Shown here: piece by piece, positions 904-13,900 of the stretch
How the letters are laid out: the number at the start of each line of letters is the position of its first letter
Position numbering within the stretch: the first letter of the stretch is position 1
Origin: Candidatus Iainarchaeum sp.
GTDB lineage: Archaea; Iainarchaeota; Iainarchaeia; Iainarchaeales; JACQJH01
Assembly: GCA_016205145.1 (NCBI GenBank)
Contig: JACQJH010000001.1
Location: 270,001-302,000, forward strand
Reading direction: 5' to 3'
Length of the DNA stretch: 32,000 nt
Made by a program: the position numbers and the translations under genes
The notes under the pieces: generated by a model
Database searches by the model: none
What the model was told of the DNA's origin: nothing
What the model saw: only the letters and a program-made list of their open reading frames with translations

Positions 904-920
904 TTTTGGTTGCGGTTTGC

Positions 921-1580
921 ATGGTGAACAAGCAGGTTGTCCTTGAAACTATCAAGAGAATGCGCGATTCCGGCCTGGACAATGCGGACATCGCCAAGAC
1001 TTTGCGCGACATCGGCATTTCCGACAATGAAGTCGAGGAATATCTTCTGGAGCTTGAGGACAGCTATGCAGGCAAAAAGCCCAAGCCCGCAAAGGCAGGG
1101 GAAGGCGATGCGCAGTCAGCCGAAGGCCGGGGCGGGGAACGCCAGGGTGAAGAACGCGATAGCGAAGCGGAAGAGGGGGATGCTGAAGGCGGGGCCGGAG
1201 ACGAGGTTCAAGGGCAGGCAGAGGACGATGATAATGACATTGACATTGCCGAAAAGACGGCGTTGCGCGTGAAAGAGCATTTGGACCGCAGGCTTGAGGA
1301 AGACGCAATGCAGGATGCCGAACTGCAGAACCGGCTTGACAGCCACTCCGAAAAGCTTGAGGCCATGCACGAGAACGTGCAGGACATCCACGGCAAAATC
1401 GCTTCGATTGCATCAGGGCCGTCGAACCGCGATCTGGAGAAGCGCCTTGCCGACATCAATGAAAGGCTCTCCGCTTTGGAGGCGCAGGTCAACGACCTCA
1501 AAGCATTGTCCACGGCATCAAAGGCTTTGCTTGCGAAAATCCTTGAAACCGACAGGCGCATTCTCGGCGAAAAAGATTAA
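921..1580 (+). CDS. Hypothetical acidic coiled-coil protein with a short helical N-domain, an E/D/G-rich linker and a C-terminal coiled coil
   Basis: The track ORF is 906..1580 with a TTG start; I prefer ATG 921 (MVNKQVVLETIKRMRDSGLDNADIAKTLRDIGISDNEVEEYL). The linker is GEERDSEAEEGDAEGGAGDEVQGQAEDDDNDID. Heptad-like segments include LEEDAMQDAELQNRLDSHSEKLEAMHENVQDIH and LEKRLADINERLSALEAQVNDLKAL. It is the only convincing plus-strand gene in the window. Confidence 0.8.
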   Translation: MVNKQVVLETIKRMRDSGLDNADIAKTLRDIGISDNEVEEYLLELEDSYAGKKPKPAKAGEGDAQSAEGRGGERQGEERDSEAEEGDAEGGAGDEVQGQAEDDDNDIDIAEKTALRVKEHLDRRLEEDAMQDAELQNRLDSHSEKLEAMHENVQDIHGKIASIASGPSNRDLEKRLADINERLSALEAQVNDLKALSTASKALLAKILETDRRILGEKD

Positions 1581-1678: not shown

Positions 1679-2032
1679 CTAACGGAAAATTTCGAAGAAC
1701 ATTTCCGACACGTTTTTTGCGCCCTGGCCCATGCGCGAAATGAGGTTCGGCGACTTCCACTTGTGGTGCGAGGGCGCAAACAACCCCTCGCCCGTTTTTT
1801 TGCCCATTTCCCTGAACGACCTGTCAACGAAACCTGTTTTGACGGCTCCGGCTTTCCTTTTCTCCATTTCGGAGACCGTGCCGTGCAGGAGGAACGAGAA
1901 AAAGCCTATGGTGATTTTGAGGATTGCCGCAACTATTCCGAAGACGAACAGCCAGAACCCGAAGACTTGTGCGTTAAGCTGCATTGCAATGAAGCCGAAG
2001 ACGAGCGTCCAGAAAATTGTCGCCCATTTCAT
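1679..2032 (-). CDS. Small membrane protein (2-3 TM) with a basic cytoplasmic tail; last gene of the small-membrane-protein operon
   Basis: 117-aa ORF: MKWATIFWTLVFGFIAMQLNAQVFGFWLFVFGIVAAILKITIGFFSFLL, then a KRK/KK-rich tail. Its ATG (2030-2032) directly abuts the stop of the upstream gene (TGAATG). Confidence 0.8.
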   Translation of the reverse strand: MKWATIFWTLVFGFIAMQLNAQVFGFWLFVFGIVAAILKITIGFFSFLLHGTVSEMEKRKAGAVKTGFVDRSFREMGKKTGEGLFAPSHHKWKSPNLISRMGQGAKNVSEMFFEIFR

Positions 2033-2356
2033 TCAATACCCGCCGGGTCCGCCGTAGCCCCCGCCGCCCATGTCACCGAACATGTCCATTGGATAGCCTT
2101 GCGGCGCACCGGGCTTGTCCCCGGAACCGAAGGCAAGCGCTATGATTATGAGGCTGACAAGGATTATGGGGCCGTATGTCTTCACGTCCGGGAAAAGGAA
2201 GAACGCGCCGAGCATGATGATGACAAGCAGTATTGTCCCGATGGAACGCATTGAAACCACGAGTATGCCGACAACTCCAAGAATCATCCACTGCTGGTTG
2301 AACTGTATGGCAAGCATTATGAGCAGGACGGCAATGATGAACGCGAGCGTATCCAT
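2033..2356 (-). CDS. Small membrane protein (3 TM) with a Gly/Met/Pro/Tyr-rich C-terminal tail
   Basis: 107-aa ORF: MDTLAFIIAVLLIMLAIQF...ILGVVGILVVSM...ILLVIIMLGAFFLF...IILVSLIIIALAF. The tail is GDKPGAPQGYPMDMFGDMGGGGYGGPGGY. It abuts the next gene with no gap. Confidence 0.8.
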   Translation of the reverse strand: MDTLAFIIAVLLIMLAIQFNQQWMILGVVGILVVSMRSIGTILLVIIMLGAFFLFPDVKTYGPIILVSLIIIALAFGSGDKPGAPQGYPMDMFGDMGGGGYGGPGGY

Positions 2357-2389
2357 TCAAATCACTTTTTTAATGCCGCCGCCATTTCA

Positions 2390-2614
2390 TCACGCCATTT
2401 TAGCGAACAATTCCTTTCCGAACGTCGCGAACAAAAATATCACTGCCGGAATCCAGACCAGCTCCGGGAACTGGAAAAACGTCAGGTAAACTACGATAAG
2501 CGAAAAGATGATGGCGAGTTTTGCGCTGCCAAGCTGGCCGCTCGCCCAGCGGAAAATCCACACAAGGTAGACGAGAGTCAGCACCTGAATGAGGTTTGTC
2601 ACAAAGTCAGCCAT
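2390..2614 (-). CDS. Small membrane protein (2-3 TM)
   Basis: 74-aa ORF: MADFVTNLIQVLTLVYLVWIFRW...LAIIFSLIVVYLTFF...VWIPAVIFLFATF. It has the same strand and spacing as its neighbours (33-35 nt gaps). Confidence 0.7.
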   Translation of the reverse strand: MADFVTNLIQVLTLVYLVWIFRWASGQLGSAKLAIIFSLIVVYLTFFQFPELVWIPAVIFLFATFGKELFAKMA

Positions 2615-2649
2615 TTTCCCGCCTTACCATAATTGTGCCGCATCCGGTT

Positions 2650-2985
2650 TTAATGCTGCCCTCCGAGAACCGAACGCACGTTGACCGTTCCCCAGAGTAT
2701 GACCGAGAAGAACCCGAAAGTCCAGAGAATGAACAGCACGTAAACCGATGAGAAGATGTAAACCCATTTTATTGCAAGGAAATATATCAGCACCCCCGAA
2801 ATTATGAGCGACGGCACGCCGGGGCCGAGGAAATTCCTCACTGTCGTGAAGATGACGAGCACGAGTATGAGCCTGAAAACGATGTTTGCCGGAGTGAAAA
2901 AATACATTATTGTCGGCACGGCAATGGCAATGAGCAGCAGGAACAGGAAAACCAGCACGAGCGCGTTGATTCCTTTTTCGTTCAT
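2650..2985 (-). CDS. Small polytopic membrane protein (4 TM)
   Basis: 111-aa ORF, almost entirely hydrophobic (INALVLVFLFLLLIAIAV, FRLILVLVIFTTV, SLIISGVLIYFLAI, VYVLFILWTFGFFSVILW). Its ATG overlaps the upstream stop (ATGA at 2982-2985) and GGAGG lies 6 nt upstream. Confidence 0.85.
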   Translation of the reverse strand: MNEKGINALVLVFLFLLLIAIAVPTIMYFFTPANIVFRLILVLVIFTTVRNFLGPGVPSLIISGVLIYFLAIKWVYIFSSVYVLFILWTFGFFSVILWGTVNVRSVLGGQH

Positions 2986-3317
2986 CTTCTGCCTCCTTCA
3001 TGGCGCATCGGCCCCATCATCGGCATTCCGCCGTGCGCCTGGTCCCCGCTCTGCGGCAGCGCCCAGAACACGTCTATCAAAAACTGCGTCATTCCGAAAG
3101 TAAGCATGAGGTATAGCACGAATATTCCGCCGAAAAACCGCCAGTAATCGAACACCACAAACCAGGAAATGATTGCAATCAGGAGCAATGCCATCGGGCC
3201 TTTTCCGAGGTGGTTGAGTATGAACGAAACGATCGTCATGAGCGCGAAAATCTTCAGCAGGAAGTTCGCGTCCGACAGGAGCTCGCCCAGCAAAAGCAAT
3301 GCCAAATCCGGTTGCAT
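2982..3317 (-). CDS. Small membrane protein (3-4 TM) with a Gly/Met/Pro-rich tail; first gene of the small-membrane-protein operon
   Basis: The track ORF is 2982..3356 (124 aa). I prefer ATG 3317 (MQPDLALLLLGELLSD...). The 13 extra codons (MEIIYSRKTIGNI) are AT-rich promoter-like DNA containing a TATA box 23 nt upstream of 3317. The tail is QSGDQAHGGMPMMGPMRHEGGRR. Confidence 0.8.
   Translation of the reverse strand: MQPDLALLLLGELLSDANFLLKIFALMTIVSFILNHLGKGPMALLLIAIISWFVVFDYWRFFGGIFVLYLMLTFGMTQFLIDVFWALPQSGDQAHGGMPMMGPMRHEGGRR
2992..2996 (-). promoter_or_regulatory. Shine-Dalgarno-like GGAGG for the 111-aa membrane protein gene
   Basis: The minus strand reads GAAGGAGGCAGAAGATGAAC, placing GGAGG 6 nt before ATG 2985, inside the 3' end of the upstream gene. 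Confidence 0.45.
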
Positions 3318-3340
3318 AATATTGCCTATGGTTTTTCTAC

Positions 3341-3348
3341 TATAAATA
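3341..3348 (-). promoter_or_regulatory. TATA-like box (TATTTATA on the minus strand) for the small-membrane-protein operon
   Basis: It lies 23 nt upstream of ATG 3317. A second motif, CTTTTTAATC (3358-3367), directly abuts the giant-1 stop codon (3368-3370). Confidence 0.45.
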
Positions 3349-3367
3349 ATTTCCATTGATTAAAAAG

Positions 3368-6300
3368 TCAGCTTATGCACGTATTCCCGGCTGACAGCCC
3401 CGACTCGAAGCCCTCGACGCTTTTCCCGCCTGCACCATTTTCCTCGAACAGTTTGAGCGCATTCCAGTAGAAAACGCTTTTGTCGCCGGAATCCGAAAGG
3501 CAAACAGTCTGGTCTCCGACCATTCTGAACAGGTCGTTGAGCTCCTGCACCGTGCCATTTGATGCGAGATTGTTTTTCTTCATCCCGCCCAAGCCGTTCA
3601 GGTTCACGGTCGTGCCGGTTTCGCTGTTCATTGTCGTGAACGAAAGCGTTCCGTCTCCTGGAGAAAGCGCCTTCAGCACATAGTTCGAGTTCGCGGGCGT
3701 AAAGACAACGGTTTTGAGGAAAACGTTTCCCTTCTTTTCCGCGCTCTGCCAGTCGACCGCGTAAGCGTTTTCGGCGCCCGGAACCGGGTCCGAGGAATTT
3801 CCTTTCCTGTCGGGCCTGTCCCAGAAAACGTTTGAAGCAAAGTCGCCTGAGAAGTCCTTGCAGTTCGACATTCCGGCCCAGTACGCGAAAACCGTGCCAA
3901 GGGTTTTCGGCTGGCCGGCCTGGAACAACTGGTAGTAGGCCGAGAGCCTGCTTCCATCCGTTTTGTCGGAAGACATTTTCATTACAACCGGTGTTGCATA
4001 ATTCGGCGAGAATGTCATCTCTTTGTCAGTCCCGGTTGCGCGCCTGACTGATAGCAGTGCTCCGCGCGTGTCAGCAAGGCCGTTGATTTTTGCCGGGTCG
4101 GCCTCGATTTTTGTCCTCAGCAATGTCATTGCATCCGAGTTTTCAATCGGCTTTGTTTCGATTATGTCCTGCGAGTTTTCAGTCGAGATTTTCACGGCTT
4201 GGCCGCTGTTCAAATAGTTCAGGCCATAGCCCTGCCTGCCATTGCTTGTGCCGACCCCGACCTTTCCGTCGAACGGCAGATAATAGAATGTCGATTGCGG
4301 TTCAGGATAGCCCTTGTAATAGAATTTCACAAGGATTTTTGCCTTGGGCTTTCCGTCCGGGCCGAAGAATTTCCAGCCGTCGCCGAAGTCGATCCAGGCC
4401 TGTGCGTCATACGTGCCTGCATCGGGCAGTTTGTCGGAGCTTGTAGTGTATTGGAAGTCAAGCCTGTCAGTGTCAGCAAAGTAGTCCGCAAACTTTCCCG
4501 TTCCATCGGAATCGAAATAGCTGGGCGTGTTGTAGAATGTCTTGTGCGCGTAGAATTCCGCGAAATCCTTCTGGAAATCGTCCGAATAACCGTCCCTTAT
4601 CAGGTTGACTCTTGGCCTGAGCAGTTTCCTGAGGGTTTCCTTGTCGGGAACGTGCTCCGTCCAGTTGGGTTCCTGCTGGTCGGCGTTTATGAGTTCTCCG
4701 AATGTTTCCAGGTCGCGGTCAAAGAACGCCTCTACTCCGGAAACTCCGGGCATCACTTCGTATGTCGTGTTCTTCAGCCAGCATTCCTCGTCCGCAGGAG
4801 GGGAAAAATTCCAGAACAGCAGTTGCAGGTTGTCTGTTGAGTAATGCGTTGCGTCGCTTGCCGGCAGTGCGTTCACGAAACCGGGTGCAAACAACGCGTA
4901 TGCAATGAACGGGTGCCCGGATTTTCCCAATGCGTTCCCGTCGAATCCGAGTTCCGCTGAGCTGTTCCTTGCAACGCTGATCTCCTTTTCCTCGTCCCCT
5001 GACACCGCGTTTCCTTCGGTTCCGCGCAAACGGAAATGCACTTTTACTGTCCTGTCCTCCGAAGTCCTGTTGAACACCTCGACCGTGAATTTGAAATTGT
5101 CGTTTTCGTCCTTGTCGTAGCGCAGTCTCTGCAGGCCGATTTTTCCGGCAGGCACGTCCTTTTGGCTTGCAGTGCGGGTGTTTTCCTCGGCCACGCCCTG
5201 CCTTACTTTGTATTCGGGGTTGACCGGGCAAAAAAATACCGGGTTCGCGTCGAAGAATTCGCGCAGGAACTGCATTTTCTGCGTCAATGCAATGCTGAAC
5301 TGCGTTGCGTCGCAGTAAATGCCATCCGGATTGTCTGCATCACAGCTTTCCGCATTGATGTTGTCGCTTCCATCCGTTGTCCACTTCCAGTTGAGGTTGA
5401 CTTTAGGCAAGGCCCCTTCGCCCGTCCTTCCGTTTGCGTTGCATGCGAACACGTTGTTGCTTAACTGAACGGGCTGCCATTGCTGCAATTCCTTGGTTTG
5501 CACGCGGATGTGGAATTTCTGCGAATACGTGCGCGTTGAAATGCCATTGCAGCTTCCCTGTTCGGGCGAATCGCCTATGTTGTATTCGGCGAGCGTTCCG
5601 CTGCTGCATTCGATGTCATACGAGTCATCGCCCGTTCCATGGCTTCCGTTTTCATTGTCATGCCTGAAGTCGCCGTGCACGTGCTCATTCGCCGAGACTG
5701 TGAGGATGCCGTATTCCGGCAAATCCGACCCGTAGCCTTGGTTTGAAAAGTCTATTTCCTGGGTTTCGAATAATCCATCCCGCCCTTCCCTGAAATTCCA
5801 TTCCGGCTTTATTTTTCCATCGAAACCGCTCACAGAAAGCATGTCGTCTGATGTGTCGGGCGGCACTTTCAGCGAAGGGTCTTTCAGCGAGGTCGAGCCG
5901 CCCAGGTTTATGACGAATGCCGGAAGCGTGTTCACTGCATGAACGTCATGGCATGAAAAGAACAGGTCTGCCAACAACATGACCGCAAAGTATGCGATGA
6001 CTCCGATTGCAATGTTTATCGCGAACGATGTTCCAATCGTTGCCGCGGTTGTCCCGCCTGCAAGCGCGGCCGTCACTCCCCCGATTGAAACGCCGAGTCC
6101 GATGGAAAGCAAGGCGGTTACAGTAACGCTTACCTGGATGCTTGTCGCAATCAGGGCGGCGGTTTTAACATAGCTCCTGAACTTTGCCCTGTCAGTGTTC
6201 TGCAAATCCTTCCACACGCAGCCGTCAGCGCGCACCTTGACCTGTTCGATGTACGCGTTGTTGTACAGCGCTGTCTTGTCCTCGCTGCCGGGGAAAACTT

Positions 6301-9300
6301 TCAGGTCGTACCGGTCCATTGAAAAGTAGCCCATGCCCGCCCAAGGCCTGCCGTTTTCCCAGTGCGCCGGGTTGAATACAAGGATATCGTCCTTGCGCAG
6401 TTTTTTGGGCGCCCTTGAAGCGAAATTTCCGTAAACGTTTATGCCGTAAACCCCGGCTATGTCGCGGTCGCCGTCGACCTTTATTGTCTTGTGATTTGTG
6501 TTCGGGCCCGGCACCAGTTCGAAGTCTTTTTCTGACAGGCTCAGGCCGCCTTCGGTTCCGCCTGAGCATCTTCCGTCCTGGTAGCACAGCCTTATCCGCA
6601 CCGGCTGGCTTATGTTCGGGCAGTTTTCAATTGAAACCGTGATTTCGCCGGTGGGATCGAAGAATGGCGTGCCTGGATTGTCGGCGAGTTCGCGCCTGCC
6701 GTTTTCCGGAGAATAGCTGATGCAAGTTGAAAGGTTGACAAGGCTGATTCTTCCGCTGAAATCCCTTGTTGCCTGGGTTTCGTCGAAGCCGTGCTCGGAT
6801 TTTAGCAGGCCGTTAACCTGAATGTCGAATCCCGCATCATTGTTTTCCGCGCCGAGCTTTGAAGTGAAGACAAGGCTTGCGGAAACGCTTTGCCCGGCCG
6901 GAATTTTTTCAAGCACGCCGATGGGCACGTTCGGCGGCAATGCGTACAATCCGATTTCCCTTCCCGTGCCGTCCTTCAATGAAAGTGAAACGTCGCCGAG
7001 ATGGCCGCCGCTGTTGGGCTGGTACGAAAACTTCAATCCGTCCAGGGCAATCGGCGTGCCGTCGATTTCGCAGTTGTTGGTTATGCTGGAGATGTGCCCG
7101 TCGGTTTTCCCGTTGTCCGTGAAGTCAACCCAGTCGGGGTTGTCGATTGAAACGCATGGCGTTGCGGGAACGTCGCCGAGGGAAATCGCAACTTTCAGCG
7201 GCAGTTGCACGTCATAGGTTTTTGCGAACGCCGCGTTCTCGAAAGTGAAAAGCGCCTGGCCGTCCACGCTCTCGTTTTTGGCGATGAGCAGAGGTGAAAT
7301 GATTTTGGTTTTGATTATGCCTGAAACCTCTTTTTCCTCGAGGCCCGCAAGTTTCAGGCCATTGCCGGAGTCCACGCCGGTTTTAGCGCGCAGGAACGAA
7401 AGCATTGAAGTGTAGTCGAGCAGTGCAAAGAACCTGGAATTTTTTCCGGACAGGCCTGCCTCAGCAAGCCCCAGTTCGGCGCCGGAAAAATTTTTCATGG
7501 TCAGGGTTTCCTGTATTATTTCCTCCGTCCTGTTCCGCGAGTTCACGCCTGACGCGAGGCTTTCAGGCTCGAATGCGATTATTTCATCCGAAACCACGAG
7601 CTTCAATTGCGCGTCCTGCCAGTAGCCGATTTTTTCGGCTTCGAAAACAATTTGCGTCGATGGCGAGCTTGCCGGCAGATGGAACACGGCTTTTCCCTGG
7701 CCATCGCTCAGGCAGTTGTTGCCTGAAATGCATGAAAGCATTGTTTCGGTTCCGTCGGCAAGCCTTTTCCTCGCCTTCAACAGCACGTTCTCCAGCAGCT
7801 TCCCCTGGCGGTCTTTCACCGTCACAAGAATGTCTTTTTCCTCGAATGCGTGCAATTTGTCAGGTTCGGCTGACAGGACAAGCGACTCGTTTTTCCTTGT
7901 CCGGAAGCCGATTTTTTCCCTGAACAGTGTCTGTCCCGCGGAAAAGATTTTTGTTTCAAGCGAGTTCGCCTGCACCTTGCTGCCGCGTATCCGCAATTTC
8001 ACGAGCACGCTTTTTCCCTTTGAAAAGTTTGGCAGGGGGATTGCACTTATTTTGGATGCGTTGAAGTTCGCATTTTCGACAATGTTTGACTGCGTGTCAA
8101 GAACAGAATAGCCTTCGATTGCAATGCCGTTGTCCTCCGCGTTCCTGGAATCAACGCTTGAAATTGAAAGCGCGGGCTGTGCAAACTCCGCATCCGAGTT
8201 GTTCCTGATTATGAACGAAACCTCGTATGGCGCGAAAACAATGATGTCGTACGGCGGATCGAGGAAAAGGTTTTCGCGGAGGTCCAAGACTTTTTCGCCG
8301 GCATAGCAGAAATCGGAATCACAGCGGACCAGCACACCTTCCTGGAAATCGCTCAAGTCAAACGTTTTCGCGTACAGCTCTTTTTTTGACGCGGTTTCAC
8401 GCGCGGCCCCCAACTCGGTGTCGGCAGGCATCCTGCTGTAAGAGTCTCCGCTGGCAGTCCACGCCCTGTAATGCATTGGCAGCGGCGAGAACGCGGGCGT
8501 GGAACTTTTCACCACGACTTCAAAGCCGGCTTCAGCCACCATTTCTTTTCCGTCCGGTGCAAACCTTGCGTTCGCCCATTTTCCGGGCATGCCTGTCTGC
8601 GGCACGGGATTTTCCGCATCAGTGCCCGCCGGAGGATTGTAAGCTGCGCCCTTTTCAATTGCCGCGTTTCCTATGTCCACTGCGCCTACGAAAAGGTTTT
8701 CGCCGGCAATTCCTGCCTGGTCGCCTGCCCTGAAATGGACGCCGGCGCCTTCAACGCCTGCGGGAACGCTCAGGCGAAACAATGCAATGTACGAATGGCC
8801 TGCTTCCATTGCATTGCTTTGCCTGTAATTGTCAAGCATTCCAATGAATTCGATTTTTGGTCCGGCAATGCCGCCTTGCAGTGGCAGTTCGCCGGAAAAT
8901 TCCGCCTTGGTGTTTGCGAAAAGCGTTTTCGGGATTGTCGTGAAAGAAACATGGCCGGGCGAGGTTATGACCACAAAGGCTTTCTGCCCCGCCCTTATTT
9001 TCTGCGAAGCCTTTCCGTTTGGCAGATCAAATTTTGCAATGCTTTCTCCGAGCATGTTGAAGAATTCGGCCTGCGAGTTTTGGAGCGGCGCGCCTTGTTC
9101 ATCAGTTGCCTCGATTTCAACATCGGCATCGCCTATGACCAGCCTTACCCTGAATTCGTTCAGCTCCTTTTTCAGGATTTTTTTGGCAATCCCTTTCGGC
9201 GCGGCGTATGCCTGCGCCTTGTACGCCGAAGGGTAAAGCGTTTCCTCTTTCACTCCCGCCCACAATGCAACGCCGTTGGCGTCGGTTGAACGCGCGGGAT

Positions 9301-10831
9301 ACGGCGCGAGATTCCCGTTTTCAAACAACAGCTTTGCAATCGCGCCTTCGACCGCAACATCGTCCTCGTCGAAAACCTGCACCCTCACCTTTCCGGAGTT
9401 TTCCTCCGTGACTTTTTCCAGTTCGATTGAAACGTTCTGCTCGCCGCTGAGCGAGGCAATGCCTGCCGTGCCGTAAAAATAGTCGTCCTGCGAAACCACG
9501 ATTGCCAGGTTTGCCTGCGGGTCGAAGAATGAAACGATTGCGTCTTCGCCGCCTGTGCCGGTTTTTCCCGTGCCTATTTCAGCGCCGTTTGCATTGCGCA
9601 CGGAAACAACTGCATTTCCAATCCTGCCGCCCGAACCTTTTTCAATTGCTGAAACAACGAGTCTGGCGCGCACGTTCCTTGAAACAACCGCATTCACGGC
9701 CGTTTCCTGTGCTGGCAGGACTTCAATGCCCTGCTGAGAATAGCCGGAATACGCGCCGTTCGCATCCGAAACAACAACAGAATACCTGCCCGGCAGGAGG
9801 CCCTTGAAGACTGCCTGTCCATAATATTCCGTGTTTTTTTCCGCGACCAGCCCGCCTTCGAAATCATTTAGCCGCACCGAAAAATTCGTTGACGTGACAA
9901 TGCCTTGCTTTTCATCCGCTATCGTCACCCGGATTTTTCCCGCAATCGCCAAGTCCGCCCCGGTTTCGCGGATTTTTCCCTCGCAGTCATTTGCGCACGC
10001 GTTTGCGTCCTCGCTGTTCTGGCATACGCCGTCACCGCAAACCGCGCCCGCCCCGCTCACGCCGCCGGACAAGAGCTCTGGTGTCAAGGTGAGAGTGTTG
10101 ACGGGCTGGGGCAATTGGAATGTTTCCTCGCCAAAGCCGGACGCAAGCACAGTCGCGGAGAGACCGATGCACTCTGAAACGTTTTCAACGATTATTTTTC
10201 CGTCGCCGTCGTCGTCCGCCAAAACTTCTATGGGCAGAGTGCCCTGCCTGCATGAAAGCCTGACGCTTGTGCCCTTTCTTGCAACGCGCTCGCCGCTTGG
10301 GGCCTTGAAAATTATCGTCTTAGTTGGAACTTCCACGCCGGCATATTGCAGGACGATTTTCTGTTCCACGCCGGCCTGAACCGCAAACGTGCCGGCGAAA
10401 CCTGAAACGGTTTTGCCGTTCACAAGCTGTTCCCTCACGGCAATTTCAATGCTGTCAGCATTTCCTGCCGCCACTGAAAACCTGCCATCTGCGCCGGAAA
10501 CAGCTTCGCCGGCAGCGCTTCCAACAATGAAATTGATTTTCACACTTGACAGGCCCTGTCCGGTCAGGTCAACAACCGCAAAATCCGCGTGAACGCCCTG
10601 ATTTGGCATTGCCTGCTGCAAAAAAATGGCCGCGCCGAACACTAGAACAAGCAAAACCATTGCCAGCAGCAATGCAAACGACGGCACAACCCTGTCGACC
10701 GCGTCAACAACGCCGTAAACAGGCGCGCCCTTCGCCTGCAATGCGTCAAGCAGGGAATAATACCTGTCTTCCGCCGAATAATAGAGTTCTTTCAGTTTTC
10801 CAAGCAAGCCCATGTAGAACAGCCTTTTCAT
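3368..10831 (-). CDS. Giant membrane-anchored surface protein, paralogue 1 (2487 aa)
   Basis: Uninterrupted 7.46-kb ORF. It has the N-box GLLGKLKELYYSAEDRYYSLLDALQAKGAPVYGVVDAVDRVVPSF and the TM helix ALLLAMVLLVLVFGAAIFL. Beta-sandwich repeats follow, e.g. KIRVTIADEKQGIVTSTNFSVRLNDFEGGLVAEKNTEYYGQAVFKGLLPGRYSVVVSDANGAYSGY. It also has a CGDGVCQNSEDANACANDC motif, a central hydrophobic block and a C-terminal module (NPDGIYCDATQFSIAL, DGYSDDFQKDFAEFY, FYYLPFDGKVGVGTSNGRQGYG). It is collinear with giants 2 and 3. An alternative start is ATG 10813 (MGLLGK). Confidence 0.97.
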   Translation of the reverse strand: MKRLFYMGLLGKLKELYYSAEDRYYSLLDALQAKGAPVYGVVDAVDRVVPSFALLLAMVLLVLVFGAAIFLQQAMPNQGVHADFAVVDLTGQGLSSVKINFIVGSAAGEAVSGADGRFSVAAGNADSIEIAVREQLVNGKTVSGFAGTFAVQAGVEQKIVLQYAGVEVPTKTIIFKAPSGERVARKGTSVRLSCRQGTLPIEVLADDDGDGKIIVENVSECIGLSATVLASGFGEETFQLPQPVNTLTLTPELLSGGVSGAGAVCGDGVCQNSEDANACANDCEGKIRETGADLAIAGKIRVTIADEKQGIVTSTNFSVRLNDFEGGLVAEKNTEYYGQAVFKGLLPGRYSVVVSDANGAYSGYSQQGIEVLPAQETAVNAVVSRNVRARLVVSAIEKGSGGRIGNAVVSVRNANGAEIGTGKTGTGGEDAIVSFFDPQANLAIVVSQDDYFYGTAGIASLSGEQNVSIELEKVTEENSGKVRVQVFDEDDVAVEGAIAKLLFENGNLAPYPARSTDANGVALWAGVKEETLYPSAYKAQAYAAPKGIAKKILKKELNEFRVRLVIGDADVEIEATDEQGAPLQNSQAEFFNMLGESIAKFDLPNGKASQKIRAGQKAFVVITSPGHVSFTTIPKTLFANTKAEFSGELPLQGGIAGPKIEFIGMLDNYRQSNAMEAGHSYIALFRLSVPAGVEGAGVHFRAGDQAGIAGENLFVGAVDIGNAAIEKGAAYNPPAGTDAENPVPQTGMPGKWANARFAPDGKEMVAEAGFEVVVKSSTPAFSPLPMHYRAWTASGDSYSRMPADTELGAARETASKKELYAKTFDLSDFQEGVLVRCDSDFCYAGEKVLDLRENLFLDPPYDIIVFAPYEVSFIIRNNSDAEFAQPALSISSVDSRNAEDNGIAIEGYSVLDTQSNIVENANFNASKISAIPLPNFSKGKSVLVKLRIRGSKVQANSLETKIFSAGQTLFREKIGFRTRKNESLVLSAEPDKLHAFEEKDILVTVKDRQGKLLENVLLKARKRLADGTETMLSCISGNNCLSDGQGKAVFHLPASSPSTQIVFEAEKIGYWQDAQLKLVVSDEIIAFEPESLASGVNSRNRTEEIIQETLTMKNFSGAELGLAEAGLSGKNSRFFALLDYTSMLSFLRAKTGVDSGNGLKLAGLEEKEVSGIIKTKIISPLLIAKNESVDGQALFTFENAAFAKTYDVQLPLKVAISLGDVPATPCVSIDNPDWVDFTDNGKTDGHISSITNNCEIDGTPIALDGLKFSYQPNSGGHLGDVSLSLKDGTGREIGLYALPPNVPIGVLEKIPAGQSVSASLVFTSKLGAENNDAGFDIQVNGLLKSEHGFDETQATRDFSGRISLVNLSTCISYSPENGRRELADNPGTPFFDPTGEITVSIENCPNISQPVRIRLCYQDGRCSGGTEGGLSLSEKDFELVPGPNTNHKTIKVDGDRDIAGVYGINVYGNFASRAPKKLRKDDILVFNPAHWENGRPWAGMGYFSMDRYDLKVFPGSEDKTALYNNAYIEQVKVRADGCVWKDLQNTDRAKFRSYVKTAALIATSIQVSVTVTALLSIGLGVSIGGVTAALAGGTTAATIGTSFAINIAIGVIAYFAVMLLADLFFSCHDVHAVNTLPAFVINLGGSTSLKDPSLKVPPDTSDDMLSVSGFDGKIKPEWNFREGRDGLFETQEIDFSNQGYGSDLPEYGILTVSANEHVHGDFRHDNENGSHGTGDDSYDIECSSGTLAEYNIGDSPEQGSCNGISTRTYSQKFHIRVQTKELQQWQPVQLSNNVFACNANGRTGEGALPKVNLNWKWTTDGSDNINAESCDADNPDGIYCDATQFSIALTQKMQFLREFFDANPVFFCPVNPEYKVRQGVAEENTRTASQKDVPAGKIGLQRLRYDKDENDNFKFTVEVFNRTSEDRTVKVHFRLRGTEGNAVSGDEEKEISVARNSSAELGFDGNALGKSGHPFIAYALFAPGFVNALPASDATHYSTDNLQLLFWNFSPPADEECWLKNTTYEVMPGVSGVEAFFDRDLETFGELINADQQEPNWTEHVPDKETLRKLLRPRVNLIRDGYSDDFQKDFAEFYAHKTFYNTPSYFDSDGTGKFADYFADTDRLDFQYTTSSDKLPDAGTYDAQAWIDFGDGWKFFGPDGKPKAKILVKFYYKGYPEPQSTFYYLPFDGKVGVGTSNGRQGYGLNYLNSGQAVKISTENSQDIIETKPIENSDAMTLLRTKIEADPAKINGLADTRGALLSVRRATGTDKEMTFSPNYATPVVMKMSSDKTDGSRLSAYYQLFQAGQPKTLGTVFAYWAGMSNCKDFSGDFASNVFWDRPDRKGNSSDPVPGAENAYAVDWQSAEKKGNVFLKTVVFTPANSNYVLKALSPGDGTLSFTTMNSETGTTVNLNGLGGMKKNNLASNGTVQELNDLFRMVGDQTVCLSDSGDKSVFYWNALKLFEENGAGGKSVEGFESGLSAGNTCIS
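3371..5950 (-). other. Conserved C-terminal module of giant 1 (about aa 1627-2487), function unknown
   Basis: It aligns by eye along its length with giant 2, e.g. LIRDGYSDDFQKDFAEFYAHKTFYNTPSYF vs IMRDGFTQDFQKDFDEFAKTKSFFATPSYY, and FSPNYATPVVMKMSS vs YSPSFATPVLLRVSS. A 24-nt stretch is identical at DNA level (5285-5308 = 12777-12800). Confidence 0.65.
5950..6170 (-). other. Central hydrophobic hinge of giant 1 (about aa 1556-1626), 2-3 predicted TM-like segments
   Basis: YVKTAALIATSIQVSVTVTALLSIGLGVSIGGVTAALAGGTTAATIGTSFAINIAIGVIAYFAVMLLADLFFSC is about 70 residues, nearly free of charge and rich in G/A/T/I/V. Confidence 0.6.
8935..10600 (-). repeat. Intragenic tandem array of carboxypeptidase-regulatory-like/Ig-like beta-sandwich domains (giant 1, about aa 78-632)
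   Basis: A recurrent ~80-90 aa pattern: alternating hydrophobic strand (xVxVxVxD), G..l..A.V, T...G.a.f..l.pG.Y.v.v...gy. Examples start at RARLVVSAIEKGSGGRIGNAVVSVRNANG and GKVRVQVFDEDDVAVEGAIAKLLFENG. Confidence 0.6.
10607..10831 (-). other. Conserved N-terminal box plus signal-anchor TM (giant 1)
   Basis: See the three-way alignment in findings. The hydrophobic helix begins only at about aa 53, so this is not a classical cleaved Sec signal. Confidence 0.7.
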
Positions 10832-10976: not shown

Positions 10977-13900
10977 TTATGGCAGTTCCCTTGGCCCGGT
11001 CTTGGGTTCGGTCTGCGTGCACGCGGCTTCCGCGGCATTCATCTGGCCCTGCATGTTTTCAAGTATGGGCTTGGGGTTCCAGAAGAACGCGCTGAAAGCC
11101 CTTGAAGAAGAGCCATCAACACACAATGCGCCGTCGTTGACAAGATTGAAAACGTCCTGCAAAGTGTTTATGCCGCTGCCCGGCGAATTGTTCGCCATGC
11201 CGGAAACTCCGACCAATGCGACCTTGTCTCCCGCCTCGTCCGCGGTTGAAAGGCTGGCGCTCTGCGAAGCCGAAGTGATGTAAATCCTTGACGAAACGTT
11301 TTGCGGCGTGAAAATGACAGTGCTCAAGCCGACGCTGGTCGAAGCTCTCTTGGGCGAGCACCATTCAAAGCCGTAAGAAGTGGAAACCGCATCCCCGAGA
11401 ACGCGCGCGCACTGTTTCTCAAGGGCCTGCCTGTCCCTGGCATTGTAAAACCTTTCCGCCGCAAGCGCGTCGTCAAAGTCCCTGCATGCTCCCCCAACGC
11501 CCGTCCATTCCGACAGGTATGTCGAGGTTCCGAACGGAGTGCCGCCAATGTCGACTCCGTAGAAAGCGTAAGCAGATTCGGCAACCGGGCTTGAAACCCT
11601 CAACAATACCGGCGTCGCAAAGCTCGGGCTGTAATCCAGCTTTGTTGTTTCGCCTTGCGTTGAAACGCTCAGAACTATTCCGCGTTCCGTCTGGTTCAGT
11701 GTCCTGAAATCGTTGTTGAAGCTTGCCAAAATCCAGCCGTTTGGCACGGGCAATGAAGTCGGCGAATTGGTTGCAAACACCGGCTGTGAGGAATCAGCAT
11801 TGATTTTGATTGACTTTTCCGATTCTTGCCTGAAGTTGACGCCATAGCCCTGCCTGCCATTCGCGCTGTCCAATCCGACTCTTCCGTCAAACGGCAGATA
11901 ATAGAACGGGCTCTCCGGGTTCGGCGCGGCTTCTCTCGTCAGCTTGACTTCGATGAAAACATCGGGCTTTCCGTCCCTGTAAAAGTCCCAGTTTTCGTTG
12001 TTGAACTTGATGTTCATTTCAACCAAATATTTGCCTGCTTCGGCAAAGCCTATTGCCTGGCCGGGCACAATGAATTTGAACCTGTTCGTGTCGCCGAACA
12101 GCTCTCCAAGCCCGTCGTTTTCGGTGTAATAGCTTGGCGTTGCAAAGAACGACTTTGTCTTTGCGAACTCGTCGAAGTCCTTCTGGAAGTCCTGCGTGAA
12201 ACCGTCGCGCATTATGCTCGCCTCAAACCTCAAGTCCTTCAACGCCTTCTCCGAACCAGGCAGTTTGCCCCGTTCAAGCTCGGTCGCAACAACGTAATCG
12301 GAGAACTTCTTTGTGCTGTAATCCCCGCAGTCCTGCAATCCCGAGAAACCCCATGCAAAGTCGCTGTTCAAATGGTCGTTTGCCTTTTCCGCGTTCTTGC
12401 AGTCGGCGCACAATGCGACTGTGGCGTTCGCGTCAATCTGGTACTGGCCCTGCCTCAGGCCGTCAACTATGCAGCTTGTGCTTGACTTTGTCTGCACTGA
12501 AACGTCTTCCTCGCATTCCTTGACAACCGAGCCGTCAGCCGCCTTGACAGTGGTCTTCACTTTCGCCTGAACCGCCTGCGCATTCGAATTGCTGACCGTT
12601 ACGACAACCTCGCCGGTGTTGTTGCCGAGCTTCCTGACCTGGGTCCTCGTTATCCCCGCATCCGCGTCAATTTCGCTCAACGACTGTTCCCTTATGGACG
12701 AAACCGATTCGGGTGAAGCGCATTCGAACGGCCTGTTGGCCTCGACAAAGTCCCTGAAATCCTGCAATTTCTTGAGCAATGCAATGCTGAACTGCGTTGC
12801 ATCACAGTAGATTCCATCCGGGTTCGAGGCATCGCAGCTGTTTTCCTTGACACTGCTCCAGCTCCAGCCTATGCCCTTTGCAAGGCCGATTGCGGGCAGG
12901 GCCTCTTTTCCGGTCGAGCCGATCCTTGCGCCAAGCTGGCAGTTGTTCAAAGTTACCGCCGGGCAGGGGAAAGTGTTCGGGCCGCATTCCTTGGGATCGA
13001 ATGAATTGAACTGCAAATGGAATTTTTCGAGTATTTTGTTCCTGTCCTCTGTTGTCTTCTTTTCATTGGCTTTCGGCTGGTCGGGCTCCCTTTTGCCCTT
13101 GTAGCCTTCGGTTTCAAACTGCTGCCTTCTCGCCTGCACCTTCAACAGCCTGAAAAACGGCACTGTCGGGTCGGCCTGCTTTATTCCCTTTGAATTGATG
13201 AACGCCAGATCCTGCAGATAGTTCGCAAGCAGGGGATCATCCTGCCTTGGAATGCTTGAATTCGTGTCAAGAATCTGCAATACGATGTCCTTGCTTTCCT
13301 CTTCAGCAATAGTTGCCGTGCCCGCGCCGGTGGCCGGCTCGATTTTTTCGCCCGTCATCAGCAATTTGATTTCCCCGACAAGCGCATCCTTGGCAATGAT
13401 TGTAAACTTCACGTCATCCTGGTTGTTGTAAGCCATCCACGTGCCGAAAATCAGGCCATACATGCCGTAGCTGTAAGGATTGGGCTTGCCGAGAATGGCC
13501 GAACCGGCGCCGATCAAAACACTTGTCATGAGCTGTGGCAGTCCGCCCTGCCCGCCAAGCGCTCCGCCGCCGGTCAAAATGTAGCCCATCGGATTCTCTG
13601 CAAAAGTTGGATATTGGCCCGAACCCATCTGCGGCCCGCCGCCAAACAGCGTGCCCTGCTGTCCAAACAAATCGTACCCCGTCAAAGGCGCGGTCACAAG
13701 GCCGGTGGAAGGCGAAACATCCGAGCCCTGCGCCAGGCCGGCGATGGAGGAATGCGAAATGTCTTCTGACAAGCTGGCCGACTGTGAAGTCCATTGCGTG
13801 CACGCGTCGCTGTCGCCGGAATCGCATTTGACTTTCAATGCTTCAAGCCCTGTCACTTCAAAGATGTTGGTTCCTGATGATTCAAGGCTTTTTGACTTGT

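What the first reader, a model, noticed from the sequence alone, without database searches (positions are those of the whole stretch)
3371..5950. Conserved C-terminal module of ~810-1170 aa with invariant motifs and no recognisable family
All three giants end in a collinear module. Giants 1 and 2 share long identical strings: NPDGIYCDATQFSIAL, DFQKDF, TPSY, FYYLPFDG, NGRQGYG and ATPV. They also share 24 identical nucleotides (5285-5308 and 12777-12800) and 17 identical nucleotides around the LPFDG codons (about 4272-4288 and 11889-11905). Giant 3 keeps the same order in diverged form (NFCDAVQNMVSL, DGYSQGLVDDFASEY, LPFDGKLGGNRRTGYG). The other copies are at 10980-13420 and 21389-24890. This is the best-conserved part of the proteins, so it is probably the functional head rather than a spacer.
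Basis: seen in the sequence. Interest (0 to 1): 0.7.

Follow-up and report, generated by a model that had tools for sequence, protein, structure and literature searches.

The report
Unannotated tail domain of archaeal giants
The three giant membrane-anchored surface proteins in this window, from a Diapherotrites/Iainarchaeota archaeon, all end in the same ~800-residue domain; it is conserved across that phylum, matches no known protein family or solved structure, and its function is still unknown.

Summary
Three minus-strand ORFs (G1 3368-10831, G2 10977-20738, G3 21386-29131) are full-length paralogues. Each has an N-terminal membrane anchor, about 1,400 aa of Ig-like domains and a collinear C-terminal module. 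All quoted peptide strings and the 24-nt identity are present. The 17-nt match is one base off, and a 21-nt run was missed.

A profile of the module finds 797 protein clusters. In the 159 sequences examined (150 listed hits plus the window's own) it sits at the extreme C-terminus, and 96 of 96 full-length homologues share the same stalk. Labelled genomes are almost all Candidatus Iainarchaeum. The gene order (G3)-G2-G1 followed by small membrane proteins recurs in about 50 of 66 loci.

Pfam, NCBIfam, PHROGs, PADLOC and PDB sequence and profile searches find nothing. A confident AlphaFold model (pLDDT 89.5) has no global Foldseek match in PDB or BFVD. Only an inserted Ig-like β-sandwich is recognisable.

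My best reading is a disulfide-stabilised extracellular recognition or assembly module of a conserved, fixed-size envelope complex, not a variable host-binding tip. This is inferred, not shown. In G1-type proteins a hydrophobic hairpin just upstream probably holds the module at a membrane, so "distal head" is not established.

It is a real, uncharacterised domain family. Interest is moderate.

The parts
3371..5926 (-). G1 C-terminal module (G1 residues 1636-2487, 852 aa), the focus of the finding
   Evidence: Profile envelope. AlphaFold model pLDDT 89.5, pTM 0.73. No family or fold match.
5948..6163 (-). G1 internal hydrophobic, Gly/Ala/Ser/Thr-rich region (residues 1557-1628), a probable membrane hairpin directly upstream of the module
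   Evidence: Kyte-Doolittle 19-aa windows up to 2.4. Present in 48 of 70 G1-type but 2 of 30 G2-type homologues at the same position. Length 27-93 aa with an acidic downstream flank.
5285..5431 (-). Cys-rich motif block GRTGEGALPKV...W.W...C...NPDGIYCDATQFSIAL. Includes the 24-nt run 5285-5308 shared with G2.
   Evidence: At least 90% conserved in 132 modules: G166, G169, P174, W180, C195, Y204, C205, D206, Q209, F210. The nucleotide run is confirmed.
4889..5140 (-). Ig-like β-sandwich inserted in the module (module residues 263-346). Variable, and absent from homologue P0004.
   Evidence: Seven β-strands in the model. It is taken to be the part matched by the local 85-140-column Foldseek hits to β-sandwich/Ig-like domains, although the output does not give query coordinates. 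Weak Pfam Mannosidase_ig hit at G1 1915-1961. The region is a gap in P0004. Lowest conservation in the module, 20%.
4223..4579 (-). Core motif region RDGYSDDFQKDF ... FYYLPFDG ... NGRQGYG, containing the invariant P551, G554, G557, R564 and Y567 (50-sequence alignment A3)
   Evidence: Invariant or at least 90% conserved columns in 50- and 132-sequence alignments. 21-nt and 17-nt runs shared with G2.
3371..4120 (-). C-terminal β-rich part of the module (about module residues 602-852), with the motifs RG, P..ATPV, W.G...C, PDR, Y...W, VC and WNP
   Evidence: Secondary structure from the model. Conserved columns N615 to N822.
10980..13415 (-). G2 C-terminal module (G2 residues 2442-3253; profile envelope 2470-3242)
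   Evidence: 30.7% identity to G1 over 732 columns, E 9e-78. Profile envelope.
21530..24001 (-). G3 C-terminal module, the diverged copy (G3 residues 1711-2534)
   Evidence: Alignment A1. G3-type orthologues keep the motifs. Orthologue in L001 at 23% identity over 859 columns, E 2e-34.
21389..21529 (-). G3 low-complexity Thr/Gln/Ala/Pro-rich C-terminal tail, not part of the conserved module
   Evidence: Translation. No counterpart in the alignment.
24002..24877 (-). G3-type-specific extension upstream of the shared module.
   Evidence: Aligns only to G3-type orthologues, for example L039 from G3 residue 1583. No counterpart in G1 or G2.
3368..10831 (-). Giant 1 (2487 aa). Identical to NCBI MBI4052686.1, annotated only as a carboxypeptidase regulatory-like domain-containing protein.
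10977..20738 (-). Giant 2 (3253 aa; MBI4052687.1), with a lineage-specific insertion of about 900 aa at residues about 1470-2380
21386..29131 (-). Giant 3 (2581 aa in this ORF call; MBI4052689.1 is 2578 aa)
1679..3356 (-). Five small multi-TM proteins immediately downstream of G1: s1 2982-3356, s2 2650-2985, s2b 2390-2614, s3 2033-2356, s4 1679-2032. They are conserved partners of the giants.
   Evidence: Homologues of s1, s2 and s3 in 52, 50 and 47 of 66 related loci, s4 in 7. Collinear with L001, where the s4 match is weak, E 2.6e-4; the s2b correspondence to L001's 87-aa ORF is by eye. 11-nt gap between G1 and s1 and a 4-nt overlap between s1 and s2.

Best explanation
**What it is (shown).** The region encodes the C-terminal module, about 790-850 aa, that marks a family of giant membrane-anchored envelope proteins. 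Complete members have a median length of about 2,400 aa. Where a specific taxon is given, it is almost always Candidatus Iainarchaeum (Diapherotrites/Iainarchaeota, DPANN). The window holds three anciently diverged paralogues (G3, G2, G1) in a conserved operon with five small membrane proteins.

**Topology (inferred).** An N-terminal signal-anchor helix holds each giant in the cell membrane. About 1,400 aa of Ig-like domains (CarboxypepD_reg, Big_1, MG-like) lie outside the cell. The C-terminal module is also extracellular and stabilised by conserved cysteines that probably form disulfides. It is predicted to be one compact multi-domain body: a β-hairpin region, a Cys-rich loop with a helical hairpin, an inserted Ig-like sandwich, an α/β core carrying the DF..DF, LPFDG and R.GYG motifs, and a C-terminal β-sandwich-rich part.

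**Function (inferred, the mechanism I commit to).** The module is a conserved recognition or assembly domain. Through it the paralogous giants contact each other, the small membrane proteins, or an invariant envelope ligand. Together they build a fixed-dimension cell-envelope scaffold that is S-layer-like or strut-like. It is not a spacer and not a fast-evolving host-receptor-binding tip. In G1-type proteins a hydrophobic hairpin just upstream probably tethers the module at the membrane.
For: **Real and homologous.**
- G1 against G2: E 9e-78.
- A nine-sequence alignment has 25 invariant columns across all three paralogue types.
- G3-type orthologues keep the motifs.

**A large family with a fixed architecture.**
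- 797 clusters at E<=1e-3 and 511 at E<=1e-30.
- In the 159 sequences examined, the module ends 0-36 residues from the C-terminus.
- 96 of 96 full-length homologues share the same stalk.
- Lengths are tightly distributed: Q1 2355, median 2426, Q3 2557, n=77.

**Phylum-wide and syntenic.**
- 158 relatives in species-representative genomes. Of 65 loci, 32 are labelled Iainarchaeum, including Ca. I. andersonii, and only 4 carry any other specific label.
- Order G2>G1 in 28 loci, G3>G2(>G1) in 5, and s1/s2/s3 downstream in 47-52 of 66 loci.
- L001 is collinear with the window from the G3 type through to the divergent coiled-coil gene.

**Extracellular.**
- An N-terminal hydrophobic (KD>=1.6) segment in 98 of 104 full-length members, with more K+R before it than after.
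- Conserved Cys columns at module positions 162, 195, 205, 233, 382, 689, 809 and 850, with no CxxC pattern.
- Acidic pI.

**Compact folded unit.** pLDDT 89.5 and pTM 0.73.

**Conserved rather than variable.** Identity peaks in the module against the stalk. Invariant D206, Q209, D445, D454, R564 and Y567 are retained in all three paralogue types.

**Lifestyle context.** Ca. Iainarchaeum andersonii has been argued to be capable of autonomous growth (PMC6349945, PMC6642349). That fits a self-envelope role better than an obligatory host-binding role.
Against: - No experiment, expression data or structure bears on function, so the assembly or scaffold role is inference from conservation, synteny and length constancy only.
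- No similarity to any known S-layer protein was seen among the listed Foldseek hits.
- N-glycosylation sequons are not enriched, whereas characterised archaeal S-layer proteins are heavily glycosylated.
- Several invariant acidic, Arg and aromatic residues could equally form a sugar-binding or catalytic site.
- Topology was judged with hydropathy and charge counts only. If the G1-type internal hydrophobic region is a single helix, that module would lie on the other side of a membrane.
- Oligomerisation was not tested.
Confidence: 0.4

Rival explanations
1. Host- or partner-cell adhesin head. The module sits at the end of the Ig-like stalk and binds a receptor (glycan or protein) on another cell. 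It would work like the C-terminal lectin-like domain of intimin/invasin or the ligand-binding region of RTX adhesins.
For: - The architecture of anchor, Ig-like array and globular C-terminal module is that of known adhesins (Pfam Big_1, SdrD_B and SpaA hits in the stalk).
- Many DPANN archaea are episymbionts (PMC7906910, PMC6349945).
- The variable Ig-like insert could tune specificity.
- Conserved Asp, Arg, Asn and aromatic residues are compatible with a carbohydrate site.
Against: - The motif-bearing core is the conserved part across the sampled Iainarchaeota genomes and across three old paralogues. That is the opposite of what is usual for host-specificity determinants.
- Strict synteny, fixed length and no domain shuffling are atypical for adhesins.
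- G1-type modules appear membrane-tethered.
- Iainarchaeum has been proposed to be possibly free-living (PMC6349945).
- No lectin fold was detected.
Confidence: 0.25
2. Extracellular enzyme. The module would be a novel glycan- or protein-degrading catalytic domain displayed on a stalk. Its invariant Asp and Arg residues would form the active site.
For: - Invariant D206, D445, D454 and R564, plus D706 and N822 conserved in at least 98% of 132 modules, and many conserved aromatics.
- The local Foldseek hits for the β-sandwich are accessory domains of glycoside hydrolases GH66, GH3, GH2 and GH29.
- A peptidoglycan amidase gene lies nearby.
Against: - No catalytic-domain match at all by sequence or structure.
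- The GH hits cover only about 85-140 residues of non-catalytic sandwich.
- No conserved His, Ser, Glu or Lys.
- The amidase is not syntenic elsewhere, 0 of 66 loci.
- Three paralogous copies of one enzyme in fixed order are hard to explain.
Confidence: 0.1
3. Membrane-insertion or cell-cell bridge device. The Gly/Ala-rich hydrophobic segment upstream of the G1-type module would insert into a neighbouring cell's membrane. The giant would then tether two membranes, and the conserved module would act at the target membrane in docking, pore formation or fusion.
For: - A position-conserved hydrophobic region of 27-93 aa in 48 of 70 G1-type proteins, some with a CPPC turn between two hydrophobic halves.
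- G2-type proteins have Gly-rich amphipathic segments at the same place.
- Cytoplasmic bridges and intimate membrane contacts are described for other DPANN (PMC6349945).
Against: - An internal hydrophobic hairpin in a Sec-exported protein would most simply integrate into the producer's own membrane.
- No similarity to known fusogens, apart from a 107-column local hit to the 99-residue HAP2 domain 3.
- G3-type proteins lack any such segment.
- There is no evidence that Iainarchaeota form bridges.
Confidence: 0.1
4. Cytoplasmic C-terminal domain. By analogy with SPEARE giants, whose most conserved part is intracellular and lies behind a TM helix near the C-terminus, the internal hydrophobic segment would be a single TM and the module would lie inside the cell.
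For: - In SPEARE proteins the conserved region is the intracellular portion behind a TM helix (PMC6642349).
- Some G1-type hydrophobic regions are only 27-35 aa long.
Against: - G2- and G3-type proteins have the homologous module but no convincing TM segment before it.
- Cysteines are conserved in both stalk and module, with no metal-binding spacing.
- The flank after the hydrophobic region is acidic.
- No nuclease, ATPase or other cytoplasmic domain signature was found.
Confidence: 0.05

Closest known systems
Inverse-autotransporter adhesins (intimin, invasin)
   Same: An N-terminal membrane anchor, a rod of Big_1-type Ig-like domains and a C-terminal globular functional domain. Big_1 hits occur in the stalk.
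   Different: These are bacterial outer-membrane β-barrel anchors; here the anchor is a single archaeal TM helix. The intimin and invasin heads are small C-type-lectin-like domains of about 100 aa (my own knowledge). Here the module is about 800 aa, multi-domain and has no lectin match. The proteins here are about 2,400 aa and occur in triplicate with small membrane partners.
Giant RTX / BIg-repeat adhesins (e.g. MpIBP, SiiE, LapA; my own knowledge)
   Same: Very long extender regions of Ig-like repeats, with the functional, non-repetitive region at the C-terminal end.
   Different: RTX adhesins are T1SS substrates with Ca-binding RTX repeats and modular, shuffled ligand-binding domains. Here there are no RTX repeats, no domain shuffling, an N-terminal TM anchor and one conserved module.
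Archaeal S-layer and stalk proteins (SlaA/SlaB, tetrabrachion, candidate DPANN S-layer proteins NEQ300 and MJ1_0160)
   Same: Ig-like-rich, extracellular, membrane-anchored envelope proteins that set a fixed spacing. DPANN S-layer proteins are still undetermined and lineage-specific (bioRxiv 10.1101/2023.10.27.564410).
   Different: The DPANN candidates described in that preprint are about 1,000 aa, several have C-terminal anchors, and all are heavily N-glycosylated. Here the proteins are about 2,400 aa with N-terminal anchors, sequons are not enriched, there are three paralogues plus five small TM proteins, and no S-layer protein appears among the listed structural hits.
SPEARE giant proteins of Nanohaloarchaeota (PMC6642349)
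   Same: Giant DPANN proteins occupying a few percent of a small genome. They are mostly extracytoplasmic, with adhesion-type domains, a TM segment and a conserved terminal region.
   Different: SPEARE proteins carry recognisable serine protease, laminin-G and type III restriction-enzyme domains, and their conserved part is cytoplasmic. None of these domains is present here, and the conserved module is most likely extracellular.
Bacterial α2-macroglobulin-like proteins (ECAM/YfhM, MagD; my own knowledge) and NOMO
   Same: Membrane-anchored chains of MG / CarboxypepD_reg-type β-sandwiches. There are weak bMG3, MG4 and NOMO1-like hits in the stalk and low-probability Foldseek hits to C3, C4 and A2M.
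   Different: No CxEQ thioester motif and no thioester or receptor-binding domain. The similarity concerns the stalk only, not the C-terminal module.

Membership tests
Any curated protein family (Pfam-A, NCBIfam, PHROGs, PADLOC) | A profile-HMM match covering the motif-bearing module | tested here: not met
   No family over the module in G1, G2 or G3. In 50 family members, each scanned on its own, only sporadic single-member Ig-like or chance hits appeared.
Any solved structure (PDB) or predicted viral structure (BFVD) | A global or core-domain structural match to the module | tested here: not met
   With the pLDDT 89.5 model, the best PDB and BFVD hits have TMq <=0.13. The long alignments have rmsd 20-50 Å, and only local β-sandwich/Ig-like-domain hits of 85-140 columns are credible. 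The PDB profile search gave a best E of 0.5. Caveat: only whole-model queries were possible, and AFDB was not available.
Inverse autotransporter adhesins (intimin/invasin) | N-terminal outer-membrane β-barrel, plus a C-terminal C-type-lectin-like domain | tested here: not met
   The N-terminus is a single hydrophobic helix. There is no IAT β-barrel or lectin hit. Only the Big_1-like repeats are shared.
α2-macroglobulin / thioester-containing proteins | A CxEQ thioester motif within an α/α-toroid thioester domain | tested here: not met
   No C.EQ anywhere in G1, G2 or G3. No thioester-domain Pfam hit.
Polymorphic toxin / contact-dependent inhibition proteins (CdiA-CT, Rhs-CT) | A hypervariable C-terminal toxin domain after a conserved demarcation motif, followed by a cognate variable immunity gene | tested here: not met
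   Here the C-terminal module is the conserved part. The downstream small genes are conserved membrane proteins in 47-52 of 66 loci. No toxin family hit.
Archaeal S-layer proteins | Forms the 2-D surface lattice, is among the most abundant proteins, and is heavily glycosylated | not testable with these tools
   No expression, proteomic or imaging data are available. The indirect data are mixed: phylum-wide conservation and fixed length argue for it, while sequons are not enriched and no structural similarity was seen.
Cell-cell fusogens (class II / fusexin / HAP2) | A three-domain β-rich ectodomain with fusion loops, followed by a C-terminal TM | tested here: not met
   Only a 107-column local hit to the 99-residue HAP2 domain 3 chain (7lr4_C, TMq 0.10). 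There is no C-terminal TM (no hydrophobic segment after the CDATQ landmark in any of 104 proteins).
SPEARE proteins | Serine protease, laminin-G adhesion and type III restriction endonuclease domains | tested here: not met
   None of these domains was detected. The definition is taken from PMC6642349.

The most novel reading that the evidence does not exclude
The three giants and the five small membrane proteins form a previously unknown archaeal envelope machine. G1-type proteins would be anchored at both ends, by an N-terminal TM and a hydrophobic hairpin. Alternatively the hairpin would insert into a partner cell's membrane, and the conserved module with its novel fold would be the hub that docks the G2 and G3 modules. 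This would be a new kind of intercellular tether or bridge, or cage-like cell wall, specific to Iainarchaeota, built on a domain with no relatives elsewhere in biology.
Probability: 0.12. Interest if true: 0.85.

Novelty: new variant of a known kind. Interest (0 to 1): 0.55.

Why it matters
No DPANN envelope or cell-contact protein has yet been characterised structurally. S-layer proteins of DPANN are still "not determined" (bioRxiv 10.1101/2023.10.27.564410).

Here about 25 kb of the window encodes one conserved cluster. Its defining module of about 800 aa is unannotated: NCBI names these proteins only after a stalk domain.

Defining this domain family, its three paralogue types and its five small membrane partners gives concrete targets. 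These are antibodies, proteomics, cryo-ET and AlphaFold-Multimer, aimed at how Iainarchaeota build their surface or contact other cells. The module would also justify a new family entry in the domain databases.

The biological payoff stays speculative until a function is shown.

Tried and rejected
- **Single-sequence and profile searches against curated libraries and PDB sequences.** Nothing over the motifs.
- **First AlphaFold run with 11 sequences.** It gave pLDDT 67.8, and its Foldseek hits were only β-sandwiches. It was superseded by the 50-sequence run.
- **Word-index homology search.** It found only 6-8 relatives and none for the G3 module. This badly under-represents the family; the exhaustive profile search found 797 clusters.
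- **Exact look-up of the G1 contig.** It failed. The source was recovered through cluster members instead.
- **Aligning 72 mostly full-length giants.** The tool failed, so shorter members were used.
- **Alignment A3 as a pattern source for locus search.** It was too diverse, so A1 was used.
- **Viral origin or virus-borne copies.** Rejected: no relative in IMG/VR and no PHROG.
- **Gene conversion between G1 and G2 as the cause of the 24-nt identity.** Not needed: P of about 0.01 given amino-acid identity and codon usage, with 54% of identical residues using the same codon.
- **Thioester (A2M-like) chemistry.** Rejected: no CxEQ.
- **Polymorphic-toxin logic.** Rejected: the C-terminus is conserved, not variable.
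- **RNA genes or tRNAs in the window.** None.
- **Literature.** No paper describing this family was found.
Full report
**1. What is in the window**

The minus strand carries three uninterrupted giant ORFs (translations):
- G1, 3368-10831, 2487 aa
- G2, 10977-20738, 3253 aa
- G3, 21386-29131, 2581 aa

They are identical or nearly identical to NCBI proteins MBI4052686.1, MBI4052687.1 and MBI4052689.1. These come from a 613-kb contig of a "Candidatus Diapherotrites archaeon" MAG and are annotated only as "carboxypeptidase regulatory-like domain-containing protein".

Each giant begins with a conserved segment of about 45 aa followed by a strongly hydrophobic helix. Next comes about 1,400 aa that gives hits to Ig-like families such as CarboxypepD_reg, Big_1, SdrD_B, SpaA and MG. 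These hits are strong in G3 and mostly weak or sub-threshold in G1 and G2. Over this stalk the three proteins are collinear at 22-26% identity.

**2. Checking the observation**

BLASTP gives 30.7% identity over 732 columns, E 9e-78.

The nucleotide runs check out as follows:
- The 24-nt identity 5285-5308 = 12777-12800 is exact.
- A further 21-nt run, 4223-4243 = 11841-11861, was missed.
- Codon-shuffled controls give at most 16 nt.

I also redrew codons from the genes' own usage while keeping the protein alignment. Under that model a run of 24 nt or more occurs with P of about 0.01, and 54% of identical residues already share the codon. The DNA identity is therefore essentially a consequence of protein conservation.

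G3 is much more diverged. BLASTP gives only E 8e-5 to G1 and nothing to G2. A nine-sequence alignment nevertheless has 25 invariant columns shared by all three. Five G3-type orthologues from other genomes retain FCDA.QF..AL, LPFDG.YG, VC and WN in the same order.

Profile-defined boundaries are G1 1636-2487, G2 about 2470-3242 and G3 about 1711-2534. The part of G3 that is shared with G1 and G2 is therefore about 825 aa, not about 1170.

**3. How widespread it is**

The word-index search found only eight relatives. An exhaustive profile search of 1.84 billion cluster representatives found 797 clusters at E<=1e-3 and 511 at E<=1e-30.

- In the 159 sequences examined (the 150 listed hits, earlier hits and the window's own giants), the module ends 0-36 residues from the C-terminus.
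- All 96 full-length homologues share the same stalk.
- Complete proteins cluster tightly in length: Q1 2355, median 2426, Q3 2557.
- I found no case of the module attached to a different architecture.
- No viral copy was found.

A scan of one genome per prokaryotic species found 158 relatives. Of the 65 loci kept, 32 are labelled Candidatus Iainarchaeum, including Ca. I. andersonii SCGC AAA011-E11. Another 29 are unspecific "archaeon" records, and four carry other labels (two Micrarchaeota, one Thaumarchaeota, one Chloroflexi), which may be mis-binned or mislabelled.

**4. Genomic context**

The cluster is syntenic across the sampled genomes.
- In an 83-kb JGI contig (L001) the order matches the window: G3 type, G2 type, G1 type, then small membrane proteins, then a divergently transcribed acidic coiled-coil protein.
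- Among 66 loci, homologues of s1, s2 and s3 follow the giants in 52, 50 and 47 loci, and the coiled-coil gene is present in 39.
- The order G2>G1 occurs in 28 loci, G3>G2(>G1) in 5 and G2>G1>G1 in 4.
- In the window, G1 and s1 are 11 nt apart, and s1 and s2 overlap by 4 nt.

The three giants are therefore old paralogues with orthologues in other genomes. They are not recent duplicates, and they belong to a conserved multi-gene unit.

**5. Is it a known family or fold?**

Nothing covers the motifs in any of these searches:
- Pfam on whole proteins, and on 50 family members individually
- NCBIfam
- PHROGs
- PADLOC
- phmmer against PDB
- a 50-sequence profile against PDB, best E 0.5, on the Ig-like insert

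An 11-sequence AlphaFold run was mediocre, with pLDDT 67.8. A 50-sequence alignment gave a confident model of G1 1636-2487, with pLDDT 89.5, pTM 0.73 and 606 of 852 residues at pLDDT 90 or above.

Foldseek with that model against PDB and BFVD gave no global match. TM scores normalised to the query are 0.13 or lower, and the "long" alignments have rmsd 20-50 Å. Only local hits of 85-140 columns to β-sandwich/Ig-like domains are credible. These include accessory domains of GH66, GH3, GH2 and GH29 enzymes, the transglutaminase barrel, complement MG domains and HAP2 domain 3.

I assign these hits to the seven-strand insert at module residues 263-346, because it is the obvious Ig-like sandwich in the model, it has a weak Pfam Mannosidase_ig hit, it is the least conserved stretch, and it is absent from homologue P0004. 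The Foldseek output does not give query coordinates, so this assignment is an inference.

There are caveats. Only whole-model queries were possible, AFDB was not available, and only the top 50 hits are shown.

**6. Anatomy of the module**

From the model and a 132-sequence profile alignment, in module numbering (add 1635 for G1):
- **Residues 1-145.** β-hairpins after a D(Y/F)VINL motif, with a disordered loop.
- **Residues 160-260.** A Cys-rich loop, G.TG..ALP.....W.W...C...N..G.YCDATQF, leading into a helical hairpin and a CP motif.
- **Residues 263-346.** The Ig-like insert.
- **Residues 347-600.** An α/β core carrying L..D....DF..DF, G.Y and Y..P..G..G......R..YG.
- **Residues 601-852.** A β-rich part with RG, P..ATP, W.G...C, PDR, Y...W, C and WN.

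P551, G554, G557, R564 and Y567 are invariant in the 50-sequence alignment; in the 132-module alignment D454, G504, P551, R564 and Y567 are at 100% and G554 and G557 at 97-98%. Conserved polar residues are D206, Q209, D445, D450, D454, R564, N615, R621, D706 and N822. No His, Ser, Glu or Lys is conserved.

Conserved Cys columns fall at 162, 195, 205, 233, 382, 689, 809 and 850, with no CxxC spacing. I therefore read them as disulfides. There is no thioester motif, sequons are not enriched, and the pI is about 4.7-5.4.

**7. The hydrophobic region upstream**

Directly before the G1 module lies a Gly/Ala/Ser/Thr-rich hydrophobic region, residues 1557-1628.
- The same feature occurs at the same position in 48 of 70 G1-type homologues but only 2 of 30 G2-type homologues. 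G2-type proteins have Gly-rich amphipathic segments there, and G3 has none.
- It is 27-93 aa long, with a median of about 44.
- Some members have two hydrophobic halves joined by a CPPC turn.
- It is followed by an acidic flank.

Both the stalk and the module carry conserved cysteine pairs, and the homologous G2 and G3 modules have no TM before them. The simplest topology is therefore N-in, stalk out, hairpin, module out. This is inferred, not shown. It means the G1-type module is probably held at a membrane rather than at a free distal tip.

**8. What it most likely does**

Shown:
- It is a real, folded, conserved domain, found almost only in Iainarchaeota-labelled genomes.
- It occurs only in this giant-protein architecture.
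- It is present in three ancient paralogue types.
- It is encoded with conserved small membrane proteins.

Inferred:
- The motif-bearing core is the conserved part across the sampled genomes and across paralogues.
- Protein length is tightly constrained.
- Synteny is strict, and there is no domain shuffling.

These features fit a structural or assembly role better than a rapidly evolving host-specificity determinant. I therefore favour a recognition or assembly module of a fixed-dimension envelope complex, S-layer-like or strut-like, with confidence about 0.4. Ca. Iainarchaeum andersonii has been argued to be capable of autonomous growth (PMC6349945, PMC6642349), which fits this modestly.

The rivals are:
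- a host or partner adhesin head (0.25)
- a novel stalk-displayed enzyme (0.1)
- a membrane-insertion or bridge device using the G1 hairpin (0.1)
- a cytoplasmic domain as in SPEARE (0.05)

None can be excluded without experiments.

**9. Comparison with what is known**

- **Architecture.** It works like anchor-stalk-module surface proteins: intimin/invasin, RTX/BIg adhesins, tetrabrachion or SlaB-type S-layer stalks, NOMO, and SPEARE.
- **Membership.** It is not a member of any of them. The defining features were tested and are absent: the β-barrel anchor and lectin head, the thioester, a variable toxin C-terminus with an immunity gene, the SPEARE protease/laminin-G/restriction domains, and the fusogen ectodomain with a C-terminal TM (see the membership table).
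- **S-layer membership.** This cannot be tested with these tools.

**10. Verdict**

- **Observation:** confirmed, with small coordinate corrections.
- **Interpretation:** "no recognisable family" is supported. "Best-conserved part" and "head" are only partly supported.
- **Novelty:** a new, uncharacterised domain family within a known kind of protein (giant Ig-stalk envelope proteins), embedded in a conserved operon that has not been described in the literature I could search.
- **Interest:** moderate (0.55). It is a good, concrete lead into DPANN envelope biology, but no function has been demonstrated and giant surface proteins as such are not surprising in DPANN.

Noticed in passing
window 31300-31911 (-): A 203-aa Amidase_2 protein (PF01510, E 4e-30; AmpD-like), which is a peptidoglycan N-acetylmuramoyl-L-alanine amidase, encoded in an archaeal contig. 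It is not syntenic with the giants in any of 66 related loci. It may be a bacterial-derived gene relevant to interaction with bacteria.
   Followed up: partly
window 29332-31134 (-): A 600-aa Cys-rich protein just upstream of G3. Its N-terminus, ...LNQRAFNLFTALLSFMLILLAALLV, resembles an archaeal class III (prepilin-type) signal. It has no Pfam or NCBIfam hit and no homologue in the 66 related loci.
   Followed up: partly
window 1679-3356 (-): Five small 3-4-TM proteins follow G1 with an 11-nt gap and a 4-nt overlap: s1 2982-3356, s2 2650-2985, s2b 2390-2614 (below the 80-aa ORF cut-off), s3 2033-2356 and s4 1679-2032. Homologues of s1, s2 and s3 follow the giants in 47-52 of 66 loci. s1 and s3 end in Gly/Met/Pro/Tyr-rich tails. 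None has a family match.
   Followed up: partly
window 906-1580 (+): An acidic coiled-coil protein of 224 aa, transcribed divergently from the cluster. It is conserved at the same position in 39 of 66 loci. Only weak coiled-coil or winged-helix Pfam hits were found.
   Followed up: partly
window 10690-10831, 20600-20738 and 28990-29131 (-): the N-termini of G1, G2 and G3: The roughly 45 residues before the N-terminal TM helix carry a conserved motif, ..(K/E)(E/D)(L/I)YY..ED(K/R)YY..LD.L....(I/A)PVY..V(D/E).....(V/I)PSF. Mean identity to 96 homologues is 31-35%, higher than in most stalk windows. This suggests a conserved cytoplasmic partner or a targeting signal.
   Followed up: partly
window about 13600-16330 (-): G2 residues about 1470-2380: An insertion of about 900 aa, unique to this G2. 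It contains an fn3 domain (residues 2026-2107) and other Ig-like repeats, and has no counterpart in 96 full-length homologues. It explains why G2 is about 800 aa longer than the family median.
   Followed up: partly
window 20832-21338 (-): A 168-aa ORF for an apparently multi-TM hydrophobic protein lies between G3 and G2 (probably MBI4052688). It is absent from the syntenic locus L001, where the two giants are adjacent.
   Followed up: no
window about 24900-25204 (-): G3 residues about 1310-1410: A Gly/Tyr-rich low-complexity stretch, GYGIYQGYGYNPNAYSGALGAGYGYQSGAGYQTPYP.... It sits where G1-type proteins have a hydrophobic hairpin and G2-type proteins a Gly-rich segment. Its composition is reminiscent of the Gly/Tyr-rich tail of small protein s3.
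   Followed up: no
L001 9968-16893: In the syntenic JGI contig the G1-type gene is split. A 2010-aa ORF is followed by a 266-aa ORF that starts inside the NGR.GYG motif and carries the rest of the module. This is probably a frameshift or an assembly error.
   Followed up: no
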